NCBI RefSeq assembly: GCF_045037415.1
Contig: NZ_CP173438.1
Reading direction: 5' to 3' (one strand)
DNA: 64,000 bases
DNA from: Escherichia coli
Lineage (GTDB): Bacteria; Pseudomonadota; Gammaproteobacteria; Enterobacterales; Enterobacteriaceae
The notes beneath the pieces are model-generated. The model did not search any database, was not told the DNA's origin, and saw only the letters and a list, made by a program, of their open reading frames with translations. The position numbers and the translations under genes were made by a program. Every line of letters begins with the position of its first letter. Positions within the stretch are counted from its first letter, which is position 1. Positions 1,625-11,132 of the stretch are shown piece by piece.

Positions 1625-2300
1625 TATTCGTGAAGCACACGCGCGCGGCGAACTGGCAATGTCCGTGGTTCTGCGCGCCAGCATTATTACCCCGGAAGCT
1701 CGTGAAGTGGCTGATCTGTTGGGTTTTACCATCACCGAATGTGATGAATCGATCCCGGTAACGGCGTCTGTTCCCGCCAGCGCATCAGCCGATAAAACCG
1801 AAAGCCAGCGCATCCGTGAAACCATTATCGCCCAACTGCCGGAAGGTCAGTTTACCGAAAGCCTGGTCGCGCAGCTGATGGAAAAAGTGATGAAGGAAAA
1901 ACAGTCGCTGGAACAGGGTGCACTGCAGCCGAGCTTTAAATCGGTGACCGGCAAAGGCGGCATCAAAGTTATTGATGGCAGCAGCGTCAAGTTTGGTCGT
2001 TTCGATGGCGCGGAACCGCACTGCGTAGGCTTGACTGATCTCGTGACCGGAGACGACGGCAGCAGTATGGCCGCTGGTTTCATGCAGTGGGAGAACGCCT
2101 TCTTTCCGTGGACCCTGAACTACGACGAAATCGACATGGTGCTGGAAGGGGAGCTGCATGTTCGCCACGAAGGCGAAACTATGATCGCCAAAGCGGGCGA
2201 TGTGATGTTTATCCCGAAAGGCTCCAGCATCGAATTTGGTACGACATCCAGCGTGAAATTCCTGTATGTCGCCTGGCCGGCTAACTGGCAATCCTTATGA
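1599..2300 (+). CDS. eutQ: EutQ, cupin-domain ethanolamine utilisation protein
   Basis: 233 aa; 26-bp overlap with eutP; eut synteny. Confidence 0.9.
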   Translation: MKKLITANDIREAHARGELAMSVVLRASIITPEAREVADLLGFTITECDESIPVTASVPASASADKTESQRIRETIIAQLPEGQFTESLVAQLMEKVMKEKQSLEQGALQPSFKSVTGKGGIKVIDGSSVKFGRFDGAEPHCVGLTDLVTGDDGSSMAAGFMQWENAFFPWTLNYDEIDMVLEGELHVRHEGETMIAKAGDVMFIPKGSSIEFGTTSSVKFLYVAWPANWQSL

Positions 2301-3100
2301 AAGATTTCATCACCGAAGCATGGCTAAGAGCGAACCATACGCTCAGCGAAGGCGCAGAGATCCATCTCCCTGCGGACAGTCGCCTGACGCCCTCTGCCCG
2401 GGAGTTACTGGAAAGCCGCCATCTGCGCATCAAGTTTATTGACGAGCAGGGCCGCCTGTTTGTTGACGATGAACAGCAGCAGCCGCAGCCCGTTCACGGG
2501 CTGACCAGTAGCGATGAACATCCGCAGGCGTGCTGCGAACTGTGCCGCCAGCCGGTGGCAAAAAAGCCGGATACGCTGACTCACCTGTCGGCGGAAAAAA
2601 TGGTTGCCAAAAGCGATCCGCGTCTGGGTTTTCGCGCTGTTCTCGACAGCACCATTGCGCTGGCAGTGTGGCTGCAAATTGAACTGGCAGAACCGTGGCA
2701 GCCGTGGCTGGCGGACATCCGCTCGCGTCTTGGCAACATTATGCGTGCCGATGCGCTGGGGGAACCGCTGGGCGAGCAAGCGATTGTCGGGCTTTCTGAC
2801 GAAGATCTGCATCGGCTTTCTCACCAGCCGCTGCGTTATCTCGACCACGATCATCTGGTGCCGGAAGCCAGCCACGGGCGCGATGCGGCGTTGCTCAATC
2901 TGCTACGCACCAAAGTGCGGGAAACAGAAACCGTAGCGGCGCAGGTCTTTATCACCCGCAGCTTTGAAGTATTACGCCCGGACATTTTGCAGGCGCTGAA
3001 CCGCCTTTCCAGCACGGTCTACGTGATGATGATCCTGAGCGTAACGAAGCAGCCGCTAACGGTGAAGCAGATCCAACAACGACTGGGGGAAACGCAATGA
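2297..3100 (+). CDS. eutT: EutT, ethanolamine utilisation cob(I)alamin adenosyltransferase
   Basis: 267 aa; 4-bp start/stop overlap with eutQ; synteny. Confidence 0.9.
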
Positions 3101-4113
3101 TTATTAAACGTTGTCGTGAACTGGCGTTGCGAGCGCCCGCCAGAGTAGTTTTTCCGGATGCGTTAGATCAACGTGTGCTGAAAGCTGCGCAATATTTACA
3201 TCAACAAGGTCTGGCAACGCCCATTCTGGTCGCCAATCCGTTTGAACTTCGTCAGTTTGCGCTCAGTCACGGCGTGGCGATGGACGGGCTACAGGTGATA
3301 GATCCGCATGGCAACCTCGCAATGCGGGAAGAATTTGCTCATCGCTGGCTGGCCCGCGCGGGCGAAAAAACGCCGCCGGATGCGCTGGAAAAACTTACCG
3401 ATCCGCTGATGTTCGCCGCTGCAATGGTCAGCGCCGGTAAAGCGGATGTCTGTATCGCGGGCAACCTCTCTTCCACGGCGAATGTGCTGCGTGCCGGATT
3501 ACGCATTATCGGCTTGCAGCCAGGCTGTAAAACGCTCTCATCCATTTTCCTGATGCTGCCACAGTACAGCGGTCCGGCGTTGGGTTTTGCCGATTGCAGC
3601 GTGGTGCCACAGCCGACGGCGGCACAACTGGCGGATATCGCGCTTGCCAGCGCCGAAACCTGGCGCGCCATCACCGGAGAAGAACCGCGCGTGGCGATGC
3701 TGTCGTTTTCCAGCAACGGTAGTGCCCGTCACCCCTGTGTTGCCAACGTCCAGCAGGCGACAGAAATCGTCCGTGAGCGCGCACCAAAGCTGGTTGTCGA
3801 TGGCGAGTTGCAGTTTGACGCCGCCTTCGTGCCGGAAGTGGCGGCGCAAAAAGCGCCTGCCAGCCCGTTACAGGGCAAAGCTAATGTGATGGTTTTTCCG
3901 TCGCTGGAAGCCGGAAATATTGGCTACAAAATCGCACAACGACTTGGCGGATATCGTGCCGTCGGGCCATTGATACAAGGACTTGCCGCGCCGATGCACG
4001 ATCTCTCTCGTGGTTGTAGCGTGCAGGAAATTATCGAACTGGCGCTGGTGGCAGCTGTGCCGCGTCAGACAGAAGTGAACCGCGAAAGCAGTTTACAAAC
4101 ACTGGTTGAATGA
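3097..4113 (+). CDS. eutD: EutD, phosphotransacetylase
   Basis: 338 aa PTA-family sequence; overlaps eutT stop. Confidence 0.9.
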
Positions 4114-4151
4114 ACGGTCCCGTTCTGGACCCTGATAAAGAGGAAAGCACA

Positions 4152-4445
4152 ATGGAAGCATTAGGAATGATCGAAACCCGGGGCCTGGTTGCACTGATTG
4201 AGGCTTCTGACGCGATGGTTAAAGCTGCGCGCGTCAAGCTGGTTGGTGTTAAGCAGATTGGCGGCGGCCTGTGTACTGCCATGGTTCGTGGTGATGTTGC
4301 AGCCTGTAAAGCCGCGACCGATGCAGGTGCCGCAGCGGCACAGCGTATCGGCGAGCTGGTATCTGTACACGTTATCCCGCGTCCGCACGGCGACCTGGAA
4401 GAAGTCTTCCCGATCGGCCTGAAAGGCGATAGCAGCAACCTGTAA
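4152..4445 (+). CDS. eutM: EutM, major BMC shell protein
   Basis: 97 aa from internal ATG ([11 protein letters not shown]...), canonical BMC-domain sequence. Confidence 0.9.
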
Positions 4446-4454
4446 TCACCCTGT

Positions 4455-4490
4455 GTGACGTCGATTCGGGCGTCACGCTCTCTCCTTTTT
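4455..4490 (+). terminator. stem-loop (gtgacg..cgtcac) followed by T-rich tract between eutM and eutN; possible intra-operon attenuator
   Basis: Inverted repeat read directly; T-run about 10 nt downstream, so only a weak intrinsic-terminator-like structure. Confidence 0.25.
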
Positions 4491-4551
4491 CATTTTACCT
4501 TCTGCGGAGGGTAGGGGGAGCTTTTACCTGAAATACGCCACGGAGGCGGGT

Positions 4552-4839
4552 ATGAAACTGGCAGTCGTCACTGGACAAATTGTTTGTACCGTACGCCATC
4601 ACGGACTGGCGCATGACAAATTGCTGATGGTGGAAATGATTGATCCACAAGGTAATCCTGACGGGCAATGCGCCGTCGCCATCGACAATATTGGCGCGGG
4701 AACCGGGGAGTGGGTGTTACTGGTGAGTGGCAGTTCCGCCCGCCAGGCGCATAAAAGCGAAACGTCACCGGTCGATCTGTGCGTGATTGGCATTGTCGAT
4801 GAGGTGGTGTCTGGCGGTCAGGTCATTTTCCACAAATAA
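4552..4839 (+). CDS. eutN: EutN, BMC vertex (pentamer-type) protein
   Basis: 95 aa; synteny after eutM. Confidence 0.9.
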   Translation: MKLAVVTGQIVCTVRHHGLAHDKLLMVEMIDPQGNPDGQCAVAIDNIGAGTGEWVLLVSGSSARQAHKSETSPVDLCVIGIVDEVVSGGQVIFHK

Positions 4840-4850
4840 GGCAGAACATC

Positions 4851-6254
4851 ATGAATCAACAGGATATTGAACAGGTGGTGAAAGCGGTACTGCTGAAAAT
4901 GCAAAGCAGTGACACGCCGCCCGCCGCCGTTCATGAGATGGGCGTTTTCGCGTCCCTGGATGACGCCGTTGCGGCAGCCAAAGTCGCCCAGCAAGGGTTA
5001 AAAAGCGTGGCAATGCGCCAGTTAGCCATTGCTGCCATTCGTGAAGCAGGCGAAAAACACGCCAGAGATTTAGCGGAACTTGCCGTCAGTGAAACCGGCA
5101 TGGGGCGCGTTGAAGATAAATTTGCCAAAAACGTCGCTCAGGCGCGCGGCACACCAGGCGTTGAGTGCCTCTCTCCGCAAGTGCTGACTGGCGACAACGG
5201 CCCGACCCTGATTGAAAACGCACCCTGGGGCGTGGTGGCTTCAGTGACGCCTTCCACTAACCCGGCGGCAACCGTAATTAACAACGCCATCAGCCTGATT
5301 GCCGCGGGCAACAGCGTCATTTTTGCCCCGCATCCGGCGGCGAAAAAAGTCTCCCAGCGGGCGATTACGCTGCTCAACCTGGCGATTGTTGCCGCAGGCG
5401 GGCCGGAAAACTTACTGGTTACCGTAACAAATCCGGATATCGAAACCGCGCAACGCTTGTTCAAGTTTCCGGGCATCGGCCTTTTGGTGGTGACCGGCGG
5501 CGAAGCGGTAGTAGAAGCGGCGCGTAAACACACCAATAAACGTCTGATTGCCGCAGGCGCTGGCAACCCGCCGGTAGTGGTGGATGAAACCGCCGACCTC
5601 GCCCGTGCTGCTCAGTCCATCGTCAAAGGCGCTTCTTTCGATAACAACATCATTTGTGCCGACGAAAAGGTACTGATTGTTGTTGATAGCGTAGCCGATG
5701 AACTGATGCGTCTGATGGAAGGCCAGCATGCGGTGAAACTGACCGCAGAGCAGGCGCAGCAACTGCAATCGGTGTTGCTGAAAAATATCGACGAGCGCGG
5801 AAAAGGCACCGTCAGCCGTGACTGGGTTGGTCGCGATGCGGCGAAAATCGCGGCGGCAATCGGCCTTAAAGTTCCGGAACAAACGCGACTGCTGTTTGTA
5901 GAAACCACCGCAGAACATCCGTTTGCCGTGACCGAACTGATGATGCCGGTGCTGCCCGTCGTGCGCGTCGCCAACGTGGCGGATGCCATTGCGCTGGCGG
6001 TGAAACTGGAAGGCGGTTGCCACCACACGGCGGCAATGCACTCGCGCAATATCGAAAACATGAACCAGATGGCGAACGCCATTGATACCAGCATTTTCGT
6101 TAAGAACGGACCGTGTATTGCCGGGCTGGGGCTGGGCGGGGAAGGCTGGACCACGATGACCATCACCACGCCAACCGGTGAAGGGGTAACCAGCGCGCGG
6201 ACGTTTGTCCGTCTGCGTCGCTGTGTATTAGTCGATGCGTTTCGCATTGTTTAA
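4851..6254 (+). CDS. eutE: EutE, CoA-acylating acetaldehyde dehydrogenase
   Basis: 467 aa aldehyde dehydrogenase-family sequence; synteny. Confidence 0.9.
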   Translation: MNQQDIEQVVKAVLLKMQSSDTPPAAVHEMGVFASLDDAVAAAKVAQQGLKSVAMRQLAIAAIREAGEKHARDLAELAVSETGMGRVEDKFAKNVAQARGTPGVECLSPQVLTGDNGPTLIENAPWGVVASVTPSTNPAATVINNAISLIAAGNSVIFAPHPAAKKVSQRAITLLNLAIVAAGGPENLLVTVTNPDIETAQRLFKFPGIGLLVVTGGEAVVEAARKHTNKRLIAAGAGNPPVVVDETADLARAAQSIVKGASFDNNIICADEKVLIVVDSVADELMRLMEGQHAVKLTAEQAQQLQSVLLKNIDERGKGTVSRDWVGRDAAKIAAAIGLKVPEQTRLLFVETTAEHPFAVTELMMPVLPVVRVANVADAIALAVKLEGGCHHTAAMHSRNIENMNQMANAIDTSIFVKNGPCIAGLGLGGEGWTTMTITTPTGEGVTSARTFVRLRRCVLVDAFRIV

Positions 6255-8278: not shown

Positions 8279-8280
8279 AT

Positions 8281-8464
<184 letters not shown>

Positions 8465-8494
8465 ATAAATAACAACTAACAGGGAGTAAAGGCG

Positions 8495-9721: not shown

Positions 9722-11121
9722 ACACTCGCCAGCTACTGAGCGTCGGTATCGATATCGGCACCACCACCACCCAGGTGATCTTCTCCCACCTGGAGCTGGT
9801 TAACCGTGCGGCGGTGTCGCAGGTGCCGCGCTACGAATTCATCAAACGCGAAATTAGCTGGCAAAGCCCGGTGTTCTTTACCCCTGTCGATAAACAGGGT
9901 GGTTTAAAAGAAGCGGAACTGAAAACCTTAATCCTCGAGCAATATCAGGCTGCGGGCATTGCGCCGGAAAGCGTTGATTCTGGTGCCATCATCATCACCG
10001 GTGAAAGCGCGAAAACCCGCAACGCTCGCCCGGCGGTGATGGCGCTCTCTCGGTCGCTGGGCGATTTTGTCGTCGCCAGCGCCGGGCCGCATCTCGAATC
10101 CGTGATCGCCGGTCACGGTGCCGGGGCGCAAACCCTTTCTGAACAACGGCTGTGTCGGGTACTGAATATCGACATCGGCGGTGGCACCGCGAACTACGCC
10201 CTGTTCGATGCCGGAAAAATCAGCGGCACTGCCTGCCTCAACGTCGGCGGTCGCCTGCTGGAAACCGACAGCCAGGGGCGCGTGGTTTACGCTCATAAAC
10301 CGGGGCAGATGATTGTGGATGAGTGCTTCGGCCCAGGCACTGACGCCCGTTCGCTGACCGGCGCGCAATTGGCGCAGGTTACCCGCCGGATGGCGGAACT
10401 GATTGTCGAAGTGATTGACGGAACGCTCTCGCCGCTCGCGCAGGCATTGATGCAAACCGGTTTGCTGCCCGCAGGTGTTACGCCCGAAATCATTACGCTT
10501 TCTGGCGGGGTAGGCGAATGTTATCGCCACCAGCCCGCCGACCCGTTCTGTTTTGCCGATATCGGCCCGCTTCTGGCAACGGCGCTGCATGACCATCCGC
10601 GTCTGCGTGAGATGAACGTGCAGTTTCCGGCGCAAACCGTGCGCGCCACGGTGATTGGCGCGGGTGCACATACCCTTTCGCTCTCTGGCAGCACAATATG
10701 GCTGGAGGGCGTACAACTGCCGCTGCGCAATTTGCCGGTGGCGATCCCGATTGATGAAACGGATCTGGTCAGTGCCTGGCAACAGGCGCTGATTCAACTG
10801 GATCTTTGCCCCAAAACTGACGCGTACGTGCTGGCGCTTCCCGCCTCGCTGCCTGTGCGTTACGCCGCGGTACTGACGGTCATCAACGCGCTGGTCGATT
10901 TCGTCGCGCGTTTTCCGAATCCGCATCCCCTGCTGGTGGTGGCCGGGCAGGACTTTGGTAAAGCTCTGGGCATGTTGTTGCGCCCACAGCTACAACAACT
11001 CCCGTTGGCAGTCATTGACGAAGTGATTGTCCGCGCGGGGGACTATATCGACATTGGTACGCCTCTTTTTGGCGGATCGGTTGTGCCGGTGACGGTGAAA
11101 TCACTCGCATTTCCTTCCTGA
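9718..11121 (+). CDS. eutA: EutA, ethanolamine ammonia-lyase reactivating factor
   Basis: 467 aa; overlaps eutH stop; synteny. Confidence 0.9.
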   Translation: MNTRQLLSVGIDIGTTTTQVIFSHLELVNRAAVSQVPRYEFIKREISWQSPVFFTPVDKQGGLKEAELKTLILEQYQAAGIAPESVDSGAIIITGESAKTRNARPAVMALSRSLGDFVVASAGPHLESVIAGHGAGAQTLSEQRLCRVLNIDIGGGTANYALFDAGKISGTACLNVGGRLLETDSQGRVVYAHKPGQMIVDECFGPGTDARSLTGAQLAQVTRRMAELIVEVIDGTLSPLAQALMQTGLLPAGVTPEIITLSGGVGECYRHQPADPFCFADIGPLLATALHDHPRLREMNVQFPAQTVRATVIGAGAHTLSLSGSTIWLEGVQLPLRNLPVAIPIDETDLVSAWQQALIQLDLCPKTDAYVLALPASLPVRYAAVLTVINALVDFVARFPNPHPLLVVAGQDFGKALGMLLRPQLQQLPLAVIDEVIVRAGDYIDIGTPLFGGSVVPVTVKSLAFPS

Positions 11122-11132
11122 GGGAACGACTT

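What the first reader, a model, noticed from the sequence alone, without database searches (positions are those of the whole stretch)
4455..4490. Hairpin plus T-tract directly after eutM (major shell protein) inside the operon
A 6-bp stem (gtgacg/cgtcac) with a T-rich tract lies in the 106-bp eutM-eutN spacer. A partial terminator or RNA-processing site here could raise EutM stoichiometry relative to downstream enzymes, as proposed for other microcompartment operons.
Basis: seen in the sequence. Interest (0 to 1): 0.2.

Follow-up and report, generated by a model that had tools for sequence, protein, structure and literature searches.

The report
Conserved RNA hairpin after eutM gene
The hairpin after the E. 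coli shell-protein gene eutM is real and conserved, but it looks like a poor transcription terminator and more like an RNA-stability or translation-uncoupling element inside the operon, an ordinary kind of feature not yet described at this site.

Summary
The window is the E. coli eut operon. The hairpin sits where stated, in the 106-nt eutM-eutN spacer, but it is stronger than described: 10 bp (4453-4462/4469-4478), -17.4 kcal/mol, z = -5.3. The T-run (4486-4490) starts 8 nt after the stem and lies in the bulge of a second hairpin (4480-4520).

The element is single-copy and present in 5,407 of 5,426 E. coli genomes. The core stem arms (TGACG/CGTCA) are invariant across six genera, where fourfold-degenerate sites are only 44-67% identical.

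In Salmonella, Klebsiella and some Citrobacter the same slot holds REP elements. A stable hairpin (-14 kcal/mol or better) starts within 15 nt of the eutM stop in 32 of 40 distinct spacers, against 27.5% of shuffles.

A U-tract adjacent to the stem is not conserved. Only one Buttiauxella looks like a real terminator. Published K-12 proteomics give EutM 96, EutN 1 and EutE 27, which argues against strong termination.

My best reading (confidence about 0.4) is an intercistronic exonuclease barrier and processing module. Translational uncoupling of eutN is nearly as likely, and weak partial termination is not excluded. No transcript data exist. This is a new member of a known kind, of low to moderate interest.

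The parts
4152..4445 (+). eutM, the major hexameric shell protein gene; stop codon TAA at 4443-4445
   Evidence: NCBIfam NF012018 EutM equivalog, E = 4e-64. Annotated as eutM in E. coli RefSeq genomes.
4453..4478 (+). Hairpin 1: 10-bp stem (4453-4462/4469-4478) with loop GAUUCG, starting 8 nt after the eutM stop.
   Evidence: dG -17.4, z = -5.3. Core 8 bp invariant in 19 sequences with U-G/C-G variation at one pair. Compensatory G-C to A-U changes in K. spallanzanii and Yokenella, and U-A in Buttiauxella. Single copy per E. coli genome. No SNP in the stem in five divergent E. coli variants.
4479..4496 (+). 4480-4486 form the 5' strand of the lower stem of hairpin 2, and 4487-4495 form its 9-nt bulge.
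   Evidence: Sequence and folds. CTCTCTCC and TTTT are invariant in Escherichia and Citrobacter, but U-richness next to hairpin 1 is absent in Yokenella and Entomohabitans.
4480..4520 (+). Hairpin 2: lower stem 4480-4486/4514-4520, upper stem 4496-4502/4507-4513, loop UGCG.
   Evidence: dG -17.3, z = -2.2. Two upper-stem pairs carry compensatory changes (A-U to G-C, C-G to U-A) in the Citrobacter R56 group and K. spallanzanii. The lower stem is broken by SNPs in O157:H7 EDL933 (C4485A) and TUM13867 (G4518C). Absent in Buttiauxella, Yokenella and Entomohabitans.
4521..4535 (+). Predicted single-stranded linker CUUUUACCUGAAAUA. Candidate RNase E entry site (GC|UUU) and the only U-run directly abutting a hairpin.
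   Evidence: Unpaired in all folds. TTTTACCTGAAA is invariant in 19 of 19 sequences, and UACCUGAA is retained in Buttiauxella and Entomohabitans. An IS911 is inserted here in strain 90-1. The cleavage role is inference only.
4536..4554 (+). eutN translation-initiation region: SD GGAGG at 4542-4546 and ATG at 4552.
   Evidence: CACGGAGGCG is nearly invariant, even in REP-class spacers. It has the lowest predicted unpaired probability (0.18) of the 17 eut start regions and pairs with eutN codons 13-22. That local fold is not better than shuffles, z = -0.67.
4552..4839 (+). eutN, the pentameric vertex protein gene
   Evidence: NCBIfam NF011992 EutN equivalog, E = 3e-63.

Best explanation
The hairpin is the first of two tandem stem-loops of a conserved, locus-specific RNA element in the eutM-eutN spacer. 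I think it most likely partitions expression at the RNA level rather than terminating transcription. RNA polymerase reads through. The polycistronic mRNA is cut in the conserved single-stranded U/A-rich linker after hairpin 2, or further downstream. Hairpins 1 and 2 then block 3'-to-5' exonucleases, so the upstream segment ending with an intact eutM ORF and stop codon outlives the downstream segment. The same structured 106-nt gap also separates eutN from the heavy ribosome traffic on eutM. What is shown: the structure, its statistical strength, its sequence conservation, some covariation, its fixed position 6-10 nt after the stop, and its replacement by REP elements in other genera. What is inferred: the cleavage, the exonuclease block, the longer half-life and any effect on protein ratios.
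For: Hairpin 1 has dG -17.4 and z = -5.3. The sense strand folds better than the antisense strand, -43 against -31.8 kcal/mol, because of G-U pairs. The arms are invariant across Escherichia, Citrobacter, K. spallanzanii, Buttiauxella and Entomohabitans, while fourfold-degenerate sites are 44-67% identical. The loop varies in length (4-14 nt by the single-sequence folds) and in sequence. Compensatory changes occur at the stem ends and in the upper stem of hairpin 2. In Salmonella, Klebsiella, C. amalonaticus, C. koseri, C. sedlakii, Pseudocitrobacter and Pluralibacter the same slot holds REP/BIME elements. REP elements are the classical intercistronic exonuclease barrier, as at malE-malF (Newbury et al. 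1987, Cell 48:297, from my own knowledge). In 32 of 40 distinct spacers a hairpin of -14 kcal/mol or better starts within 15 nt of the eutM stop, against 110 of 400 shuffles. The only other long spacer of this operon, eutG-eutH, is a four-REP BIME. EutM is the most abundant shell protein (96 on a scale where EutQ is 100; PMC11334477). The linker after hairpin 2 contains GC|UUU, which fits the RNase E motif RN|WUU (Chao et al. 2017, from my own knowledge).
Against: No transcript end, processing site or half-life has been measured here. The operon is off in the one 3'-end data set I could search. Differential decay cannot explain why EutN (1) is 27-fold below EutE (27), which is on the same downstream RNA. 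EutD, EutS and EutP lie upstream of the hairpin and are low (7-11), so any stabilised segment does not by itself set protein levels. Predicted start-site accessibility correlates with abundance (Spearman rho -0.60, p = 0.04, n = 12). REP elements insert wherever intergenic space is tolerated, so their presence here may reflect tolerance rather than equivalent function. An exonuclease barrier needs only stability and does not explain why the TGACG/CGTCA core never covaries.
Confidence: 0.4

Rival explanations
1. Translational insulator of eutN. The structured gap, with a hairpin at the leading edge of the ribosome that terminates on eutM, prevents coupling and post-termination re-initiation. 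eutN is then translated only from its own partly occluded start site, which gives roughly 1 vertex subunit per 100 hexamer subunits. This is not exclusive of the best explanation.
For: EutN is 1 against EutM 96 and EutE 27, a dip that only a translational or protein-level effect can produce. The eutN start region has the lowest unpaired probability of the 17 eut genes (0.18) and an opening cost of 14.8 kcal/mol, against 7.7 for eutM. It pairs with eutN codons 13-22. The hairpin always starts 2-13 nt, mostly 6-10 nt, after the stop. That is about where mRNA enters a ribosome with the stop codon in its A site (Takyar et al. 2005, from my own knowledge). Every genus keeps a spacer of 52 nt or more here, and in the window most other eut junctions are 12 nt or shorter or overlap.
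Against: The start-site fold is no better than shuffles, z = -0.67, and differs between species. The SD GGAGG with 5-nt spacing is strong. The low EutN value could reflect poor detection or instability of a 95-aa protein. No reporter data exist.
Confidence: 0.28
2. Partial intrinsic terminator. A fraction of polymerases stop at hairpin 1 plus UCUCUCCUUUUU, or at hairpin 2 plus CUUUUA, which lowers all downstream transcripts.
For: Hairpin 1 is GC-rich with a 6-nt loop, and it was the top hit of the terminator scan. In Buttiauxella the same hairpin is followed directly by UUUCUUUAA or CUUCUUUUA, and B. noackiae scores as a terminator (d = +4.5 to +20.6). That suggests descent from a terminator, or residual activity as one. 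UUUUA after hairpin 2 is invariant in 19 of 19 sequences.
Against: Only 4 of the first 8 nt after hairpin 1 are U, none adjacent to another, and the U5 run starts at +8. E. coli scores d = +0.6 or -20, and Citrobacter, Yokenella and Entomohabitans score -8 to -64. The tail is not conserved, whereas the stem is. Hairpin 2 has a 9-nt bulge and only four U. Terminator-like hits occur at chance frequency. EutE (27) exceeds three of the four quantified upstream proteins. eutR at the far end of the operon needs read-through for autoinduction (Roof and Roth 1992, from my own knowledge).
Confidence: 0.17
3. Tolerated relic with no present function. The spacer is simply a permissive gap that collects palindromes, either an old hairpin or REP elements.
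For: REP elements invade it repeatedly. The lower stem of hairpin 2 is broken in the O157:H7 and TUM13867 lineages. An IS911 sits in the spacer in one strain. Whole-spacer z-scores are modest, median -2.1.
Against: The hairpin 1 arms, TTTTACCTGAAA and CTCTCTCC are invariant where synonymous sites are 33-56% diverged. Hairpin 1 is identical in at least 5,193 of 5,408 E. coli records over 34 nt. Hairpins near the stop occur in 80% of spacers against 27.5% of shuffles.
Confidence: 0.1
4. Recognition site for a sequence-specific factor, such as an RNA chaperone like ProQ, RNase III, or the nucleic-acid-binding C-terminal domain of EutK. It would be read as an RNA stem or as the DNA palindrome GTGACGTCAC.
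For: The TGACG/CGTCA core never covaries in 25 sequences from six genera. The 5' arm alone is a perfect DNA palindrome in several species.
Against: The distance between the arms changes with the variable loop, which is hard to reconcile with a fixed-geometry DNA site. REP-class species lack the motif altogether. Salmonella, one of them, still has EutK (from my own knowledge; not checked here). The pattern occurs once in the 64-kb window and the element once per genome. There is no Rfam match.
Confidence: 0.05

Closest known systems
Intercistronic REP stabiliser of malE-malF (Newbury et al. 1987) and REP/BIME elements in general
   Same: A stable stem-loop between a highly expressed upstream cistron and less expressed downstream ones. 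The orthologous slot in Salmonella, Klebsiella and several Citrobacter is occupied by REP elements, as is the eutG-eutH spacer in this window.
   Different: It has no REP consensus. It is single-copy and specific to this locus in E. coli. It is paired with a second, unrelated hairpin.
Intercistronic hairpins of the Rhodobacter capsulatus puf operon (pufBA versus pufLMX segmental mRNA stability; Belasco, Klug and colleagues, from my own knowledge)
   Same: Hairpins directly after the genes whose products are needed in excess, inside one operon, setting the stoichiometry of a multi-subunit assembly through segmental decay.
   Different: There is no sequence relation. For puf the decay intermediates and half-lives were measured. 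Here nothing has been measured.
Canonical Rho-independent terminators and operon-internal attenuators
   Same: GC-rich stem of 10 bp, short loop, pyrimidine- and U-rich 3' flank. The Buttiauxella orthologue looks canonical.
   Different: The U-tract is interrupted by C and displaced by 8 nt, and it is not conserved. The site is inside an operon whose distal genes are well expressed.
EutV/ANTAR-controlled terminators inside the eut loci of Firmicutes (reviewed in PMC5821096)
   Same: RNA hairpins inside a eut locus that modulate expression of downstream genes.
   Different: ANTAR targets have two hexaloop hairpins with A at loop position 1 and G at position 4, overlapping a terminator. Here the loops are GAUUCG and UGCG and vary between genera. 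Regulation in enterobacteria is by EutR, and no EutV/EutW is expected (from my own knowledge). There is no Rfam hit.
REP within 15 nt of a stop codon causing ribosome stalling and trans-translation (Liang, Rudd and Deutscher 2015, Mol Cell 58:431, from my own knowledge)
   Same: A stable hairpin starting less than 15 nt after a stop codon. Here it starts at +8, and at +2 to +13 in other taxa.
   Different: That mechanism lowers the upstream protein, whereas EutM is among the most abundant Eut proteins. It was not tested here.

Membership tests
Rho-independent (intrinsic) terminator | GC-rich stem of about 5-14 bp with a 3-8 nt loop | tested here: met
   10 bp, 6 G-C pairs, 6-nt loop, dG -17.4.
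Rho-independent (intrinsic) terminator | U-tract of about 7-9 nt directly (0-2 nt) after the stem, with U-rich proximal positions | tested here: not met
   The tail is UCUCUCCUUUUU: 4 U in the first 8 nt, none consecutive, and the U5 run starts at +8. The tail is not conserved across genera.
Rho-independent (intrinsic) terminator | Transcript 3' ends about 7-9 nt after the stem, in vivo and in vitro | not testable with these tools
   The one searchable E. coli 3'-end data set lists no sense-strand end here, but the operon is uninduced in it. No other data were found.
REP/BIME repeat family | REP consensus (GCCGGATG...CTTATCCGGCCTAC) and many copies per genome | tested here: not met
   No consensus match. 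There is one place per E. coli genome and one pattern match in 64 kb. True REP elements are seen at 8279-8494 and in other genera.
Any curated Rfam family (riboswitch, leader, sRNA, ANTAR target) | Covariance-model match | tested here: not met
   cmscan of 3500-5500, both strands, E up to 10: no matches.
ANTAR-regulated terminator (Firmicute eut) | Two hairpins with hexaloops carrying A at position 1 and G at position 4, the second overlapping a terminator | tested here: not met
   The loops are GAUUCG (6 nt) and UGCG (4 nt). The loop of hairpin 1 varies in length (4-14 nt by the folds) and in sequence between genera.
Intercistronic mRNA stabiliser (functional class) | Stable stem-loop between a highly expressed upstream cistron and lower-expressed downstream cistrons, conserved as a structure | tested here: met
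   and EutM 96 against EutN 1 and EutE 27.
Intercistronic mRNA stabiliser (functional class) | Upstream RNA segment ends at the hairpin and has a longer half-life | not testable with these tools
   Needs Northern blots, 3' RACE and rifampicin chase on induced cells.

The most novel reading that the evidence does not exclude
A stable hairpin at the mRNA entrance of the ribosome terminating on eutM, starting 6-10 nt past the stop, is a conserved device for setting stoichiometry. It fixes the ratio of hexameric facet protein to pentameric vertex protein at about 100:1 by blocking re-initiation and coupling. On this reading evolution has refilled the slot several times with unrelated hairpins: the TGACG hairpin, captured REP elements, and GC-rich hairpins in Pseudomonas and Rhodocyclaceae.
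Probability: 0.2. Interest if true: 0.45.

Novelty: new member of a known kind. Interest (0 to 1): 0.25.

Why it matters
Microcompartment shells need many hexamers and very few pentamers, and both are encoded side by side in one operon. How that ratio is set is not established for Eut. A defined, mutable RNA element at exactly this junction gives a direct handle on the question. It would also matter for engineered Eut shells, where eutM and eutN are often cloned with or without the native spacer. Mechanistically it would be another case of a well-known principle, so the expected gain is modest.

Tried and rejected
- **Rfam.** A scan at E up to 10 found nothing.
- **Repeat-family membership.** Rejected: one copy per E. 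coli genome and one pattern match in the window.
- **CRP or MetJ-type DNA site.** The arm spacing is wrong and varies between genera (inspection).
- **ANTAR target.** The loops do not fit.
- **Stop-codon read-through giving an EutM-EutN fusion.** This was prompted by the fused 690-bp ORF in S. Typhi (PMC3548604) and by open in-frame spacers in several Citrobacter. The eutM frame is stop-free in 13 of 40 spacers, against 9 and 10 of 40 for the other two frames. The E. coli spacer is out of frame and has a TAG. Rejected as a conserved feature.
- **Long-range pairing of the spacer 5' end (ACCC) with GGGU before the eutN ATG.** It appears in the 106-nt fold, disappears when eutN codons are included, and uses a different register in Citrobacter.
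- **Rho loading site.** C/G is only about 1.1-1.16 over the spacer, against an operon 95th percentile of 1.375, and eutN is G-rich. Not indicated.
- **Antisense promoter in the spacer.** None found by the scan.
- **Literature.** Searches for eutM with stem-loop, Term-seq, RNase E or REP found nothing relevant. Kofoid et al. 1999 (PMC94038) is not held. No supplements are held for Dar and Sorek 2018.
- **Terminator score.** It was written from memory of d'Aubenton-Carafa 1990 and TransTermHP, and one control (rrnB T1) behaved poorly. I use it only as a ranking between species.

Full report
**Identity of the locus.** The window carries the E. coli eut operon. The genes are eutT 2297-3100, eutD 3097-4113, eutM 4152-4445, eutN 4552-4839 and eutE 4851-6254, all with equivalog-level NCBIfam matches. 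An 801-nt stretch across the site is at least 95% identical in 5,406 of 5,426 complete E. coli genomes. K-12 MG1655 is identical to the window over 4431-4566 and has nothing annotated in the spacer.

**The observation.**
- The helix is 10 bp (4453-4462/4469-4478) with loop GAUUCG. Its dG is -17.4 kcal/mol and z = -5.3, with 0 of 200 shuffles as good.
- The full spacer folds at -43 kcal/mol (z = -3.2) into this hairpin plus a second one. The second has a lower stem 4480-4486/4514-4520, a 9-nt bulge 4487-4495, an upper stem 4496-4502/4507-4513 and loop UGCG. Its dG is -17.3 and z = -2.2.
It starts 8 nt after the stem and belongs to the 5' side of hairpin 2.
- The sense strand folds much better than the antisense strand, -43 against -31.8 kcal/mol, because several pairs are G-U. 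That points to an RNA-level feature of the eut transcript.
- Rfam has no match.

**Conservation within E. coli.**
- A 34-nt query covering hairpin 1 finds one place in nearly every genome (median 1, highest 2). It is identical in 5,193 of 5,408 records, so this is not a dispersed repeat.
- In five divergent variants the SNPs fall in the flanks, the bulge, the loop of hairpin 2 or its lower stem, never in hairpin 1. Examples are C4485A in O157:H7 EDL933 and G4518C in TUM13867.

**Conservation across genera.** A scan of species-representative genomes with EutN gave 48 loci. In 42 of them I could extract the eutM-eutN spacer (40 distinct sequences), and it is always long, 52-211 nt. In the window most other eut junctions are 12 nt or shorter or overlap; the exceptions besides this one are eutD-eutM (38 nt), eutC's and eutK's downstream gaps of up to 45 nt, and the 216-nt eutG-eutH gap. 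Two classes of spacer appear.
- **Class a** covers Escherichia, the C. freundii group, the Citrobacter R56 group, K. spallanzanii, Buttiauxella, Yokenella and Entomohabitans.
  - It has a hairpin with arms (G/A)TGACG(T/C)C and G(A/G)CGTCA(C/T).
  - The single-sequence folds give it a terminal loop of 4-14 nt, and the region between the conserved arms varies much more in length and sequence.
  - Only the first four of these groups also have hairpin 2.
- **Class b** covers Salmonella, K. pneumoniae, K. oxytoca, K. michiganensis, K. grimontii, C. amalonaticus, C. koseri, C. sedlakii, Pseudocitrobacter and Pluralibacter. It has REP/BIME elements instead and no trace of hairpin 1 or 2.
- Pseudomonas nitroreducens and two Rhodocyclaceae have unrelated GC-rich hairpins in the same place.

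**Evidence for selection.**
- In the 19-sequence alignment the 8 core pairs of hairpin 1 are invariant apart from U-G/C-G at one pair. CTCTCTCC, TTTTACCTGAAA and GCCACGGAGGCG are also invariant.
- Fourfold-degenerate sites of eutM and eutN are only 57-67% identical between E. coli and Citrobacter or K. spallanzanii. The figure is 44-55% for Buttiauxella, Yokenella and Entomohabitans. The arms are therefore under purifying selection.
- Covariation is modest but real.
  - Pair 8-49 is G-C in Escherichia and A-U in K. spallanzanii.
  - The pair at the start of the core is G-C in most sequences and A-U in Yokenella.
  - One pair takes U-G, C-G and U-A.
  - Two upper-stem pairs of hairpin 2 change on both sides in two lineages.
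  - The observed structure pairs 93.5% of cells, against 48-58% when the partner columns are slid.
- In 32 of 40 distinct spacers a simple hairpin of -14 kcal/mol or better starts within 15 nt of the eutM stop, mostly at +6 to +10. The figure for dinucleotide shuffles is 110 of 400.

**Is it a terminator?** The evidence is weak.
- The tail after hairpin 1 is UCUCUCCU. By a d'Aubenton-Carafa-type score, which I wrote from memory and use only for ranking, the results are as follows:
  - E. coli scores +0.6 or -20, depending on how the tail is summed.
  - The Citrobacter groups score -10 to -64.
  - Yokenella scores -20 or -47.
  - Entomohabitans scores -8 or -31.
  - Only Buttiauxella noackiae, with tail UUUCUUUAA directly after the stem, is positive on both variants.
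- Hairpin 2 is followed by an invariant CUUUUA, but it is a bulged helix with only four U.
- The generic scan finds 21 terminator-like sites in 18 kb, against 21.5 expected.
- Quantitative proteomics of E. coli K-12 grown on ethanolamine gives EutQ 100, EutM 96, EutL 39, EutB 37, EutE 27, EutC 24, EutS 11, EutD 10, EutK 8, EutG 7, EutP 7 and EutN 1 (PMC11334477).
  - EutE is encoded immediately after eutN and exceeds three of the four quantified upstream proteins.
  - The geometric means upstream and downstream of the site are 23.6 and 19.3.
  - K-12 carries the CPZ-55 prophage between eutA and eutB (my own knowledge; yffM and yffN appear in that interval). The values for EutB, EutC, EutL and EutK may therefore not report read-through.
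- A strong terminator is excluded. A weak one, up to about two- to three-fold, is not.

**What the data do require.** The EutN-specific dip (1, against 96 before it and 27 after it) cannot be produced by termination or segmental decay alone.
- The eutN start region has the lowest predicted unpaired probability of the 17 eut genes, 0.18. It pairs with eutN codons 13-22.
- Opening energy correlates with protein abundance across the operon (rho -0.60, p = 0.04, n = 12).
- That fold is not better than shuffles (z = -0.67) and is not uniform between species.

**Interpretation.** The element belongs to the familiar class of intercistronic stem-loops that partition expression within an operon.
- I rank an exonuclease barrier and processing role first, at about 0.4. 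The reasons are the interchange with REP elements, the tandem stable hairpins, and the conserved single-stranded U/A-rich linker with an RNase-E-like GC|UUU right after hairpin 2.
- Translational uncoupling of eutN is close behind at about 0.28, and the two are not exclusive.
- Partial intrinsic termination is at about 0.17. It is supported mainly by the Buttiauxella orthologues.
- A functionless relic is at about 0.1.
- A sequence-specific binding site is at about 0.05. It is suggested only by the invariant TGACG/CGTCA core.

**Literature.** I found no description of this hairpin or of eutM-eutN transcript ends. The Term-seq study I could search lists only an antisense 3' end inside eutM.

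**Verdict.** It is a new member of a known kind, of low to moderate interest.

Noticed in passing
window 8279-8494: The 216-nt eutG-eutH spacer is a BIME of four REP elements (tgccggatgcgacgc...cttatccggcctac, repeated in alternating orientation). It is the only other long spacer inside this eut operon.
   Followed up: partly
window about 4385, minus strand (K-12 NC_000913.3 position 2572217, plus strand): Adams et al. 2021 (PMC7815308, supplementary file 1) list a low-scoring antisense RNA 3' end inside the eutM 3' region. Such a transcript would run through the reverse complement of the spacer. The consensus scan found no antisense promoter in the spacer.
   Followed up: partly
L053:395-694 (E. 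coli strain 90-1, NZ_CP050047.1), equivalent to window about 4525: An IS911 is inserted in the spacer just after hairpin 2, within CTTT|TACCTG, and cuts the eut operon between eutM and eutN.
   Followed up: no
L007, L008, L009, L010, L012, L013, L017, L020, L022, L026, L032 (spacers upstream of position 1501, or 1053 in L022): In several Citrobacter, Pseudocitrobacter, Pluralibacter and Intestinirhabdus genomes the spacer is a multiple of 3 with no in-frame stop. Read-through or loss of the eutM stop would fuse EutM to EutN, as annotated in S. Typhi (PMC3548604). Frame statistics do not show selection for this.
   Followed up: yes
window 11121-11133: eutA and eutB are adjacent with an 11-nt gap, so this genome lacks the CPZ-55 prophage that interrupts the operon at this point in K-12. 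The eutM-eutN spacer is nevertheless identical to that of K-12.
   Followed up: no
window 15682-15688: eutR (plus strand, ends at 15682) and a 300-aa ORF on the minus strand, presumably hemF, whose stop-codon end is at 15688, converge with only 5 nt between them. That leaves no room for a conventional terminator at the end of the eut operon.
   Followed up: no
window 4493-4500 and 4522-4529: TTTTACCT occurs twice, once in the bulge and upper stem of hairpin 2 and once right after hairpin 2. In Buttiauxella sp. A111 (L037) CTTTTACCTGA follows hairpin 1 directly. Hairpin 2 may therefore have arisen by a local duplication or insertion in the Escherichia/Citrobacter lineage.
   Followed up: partly
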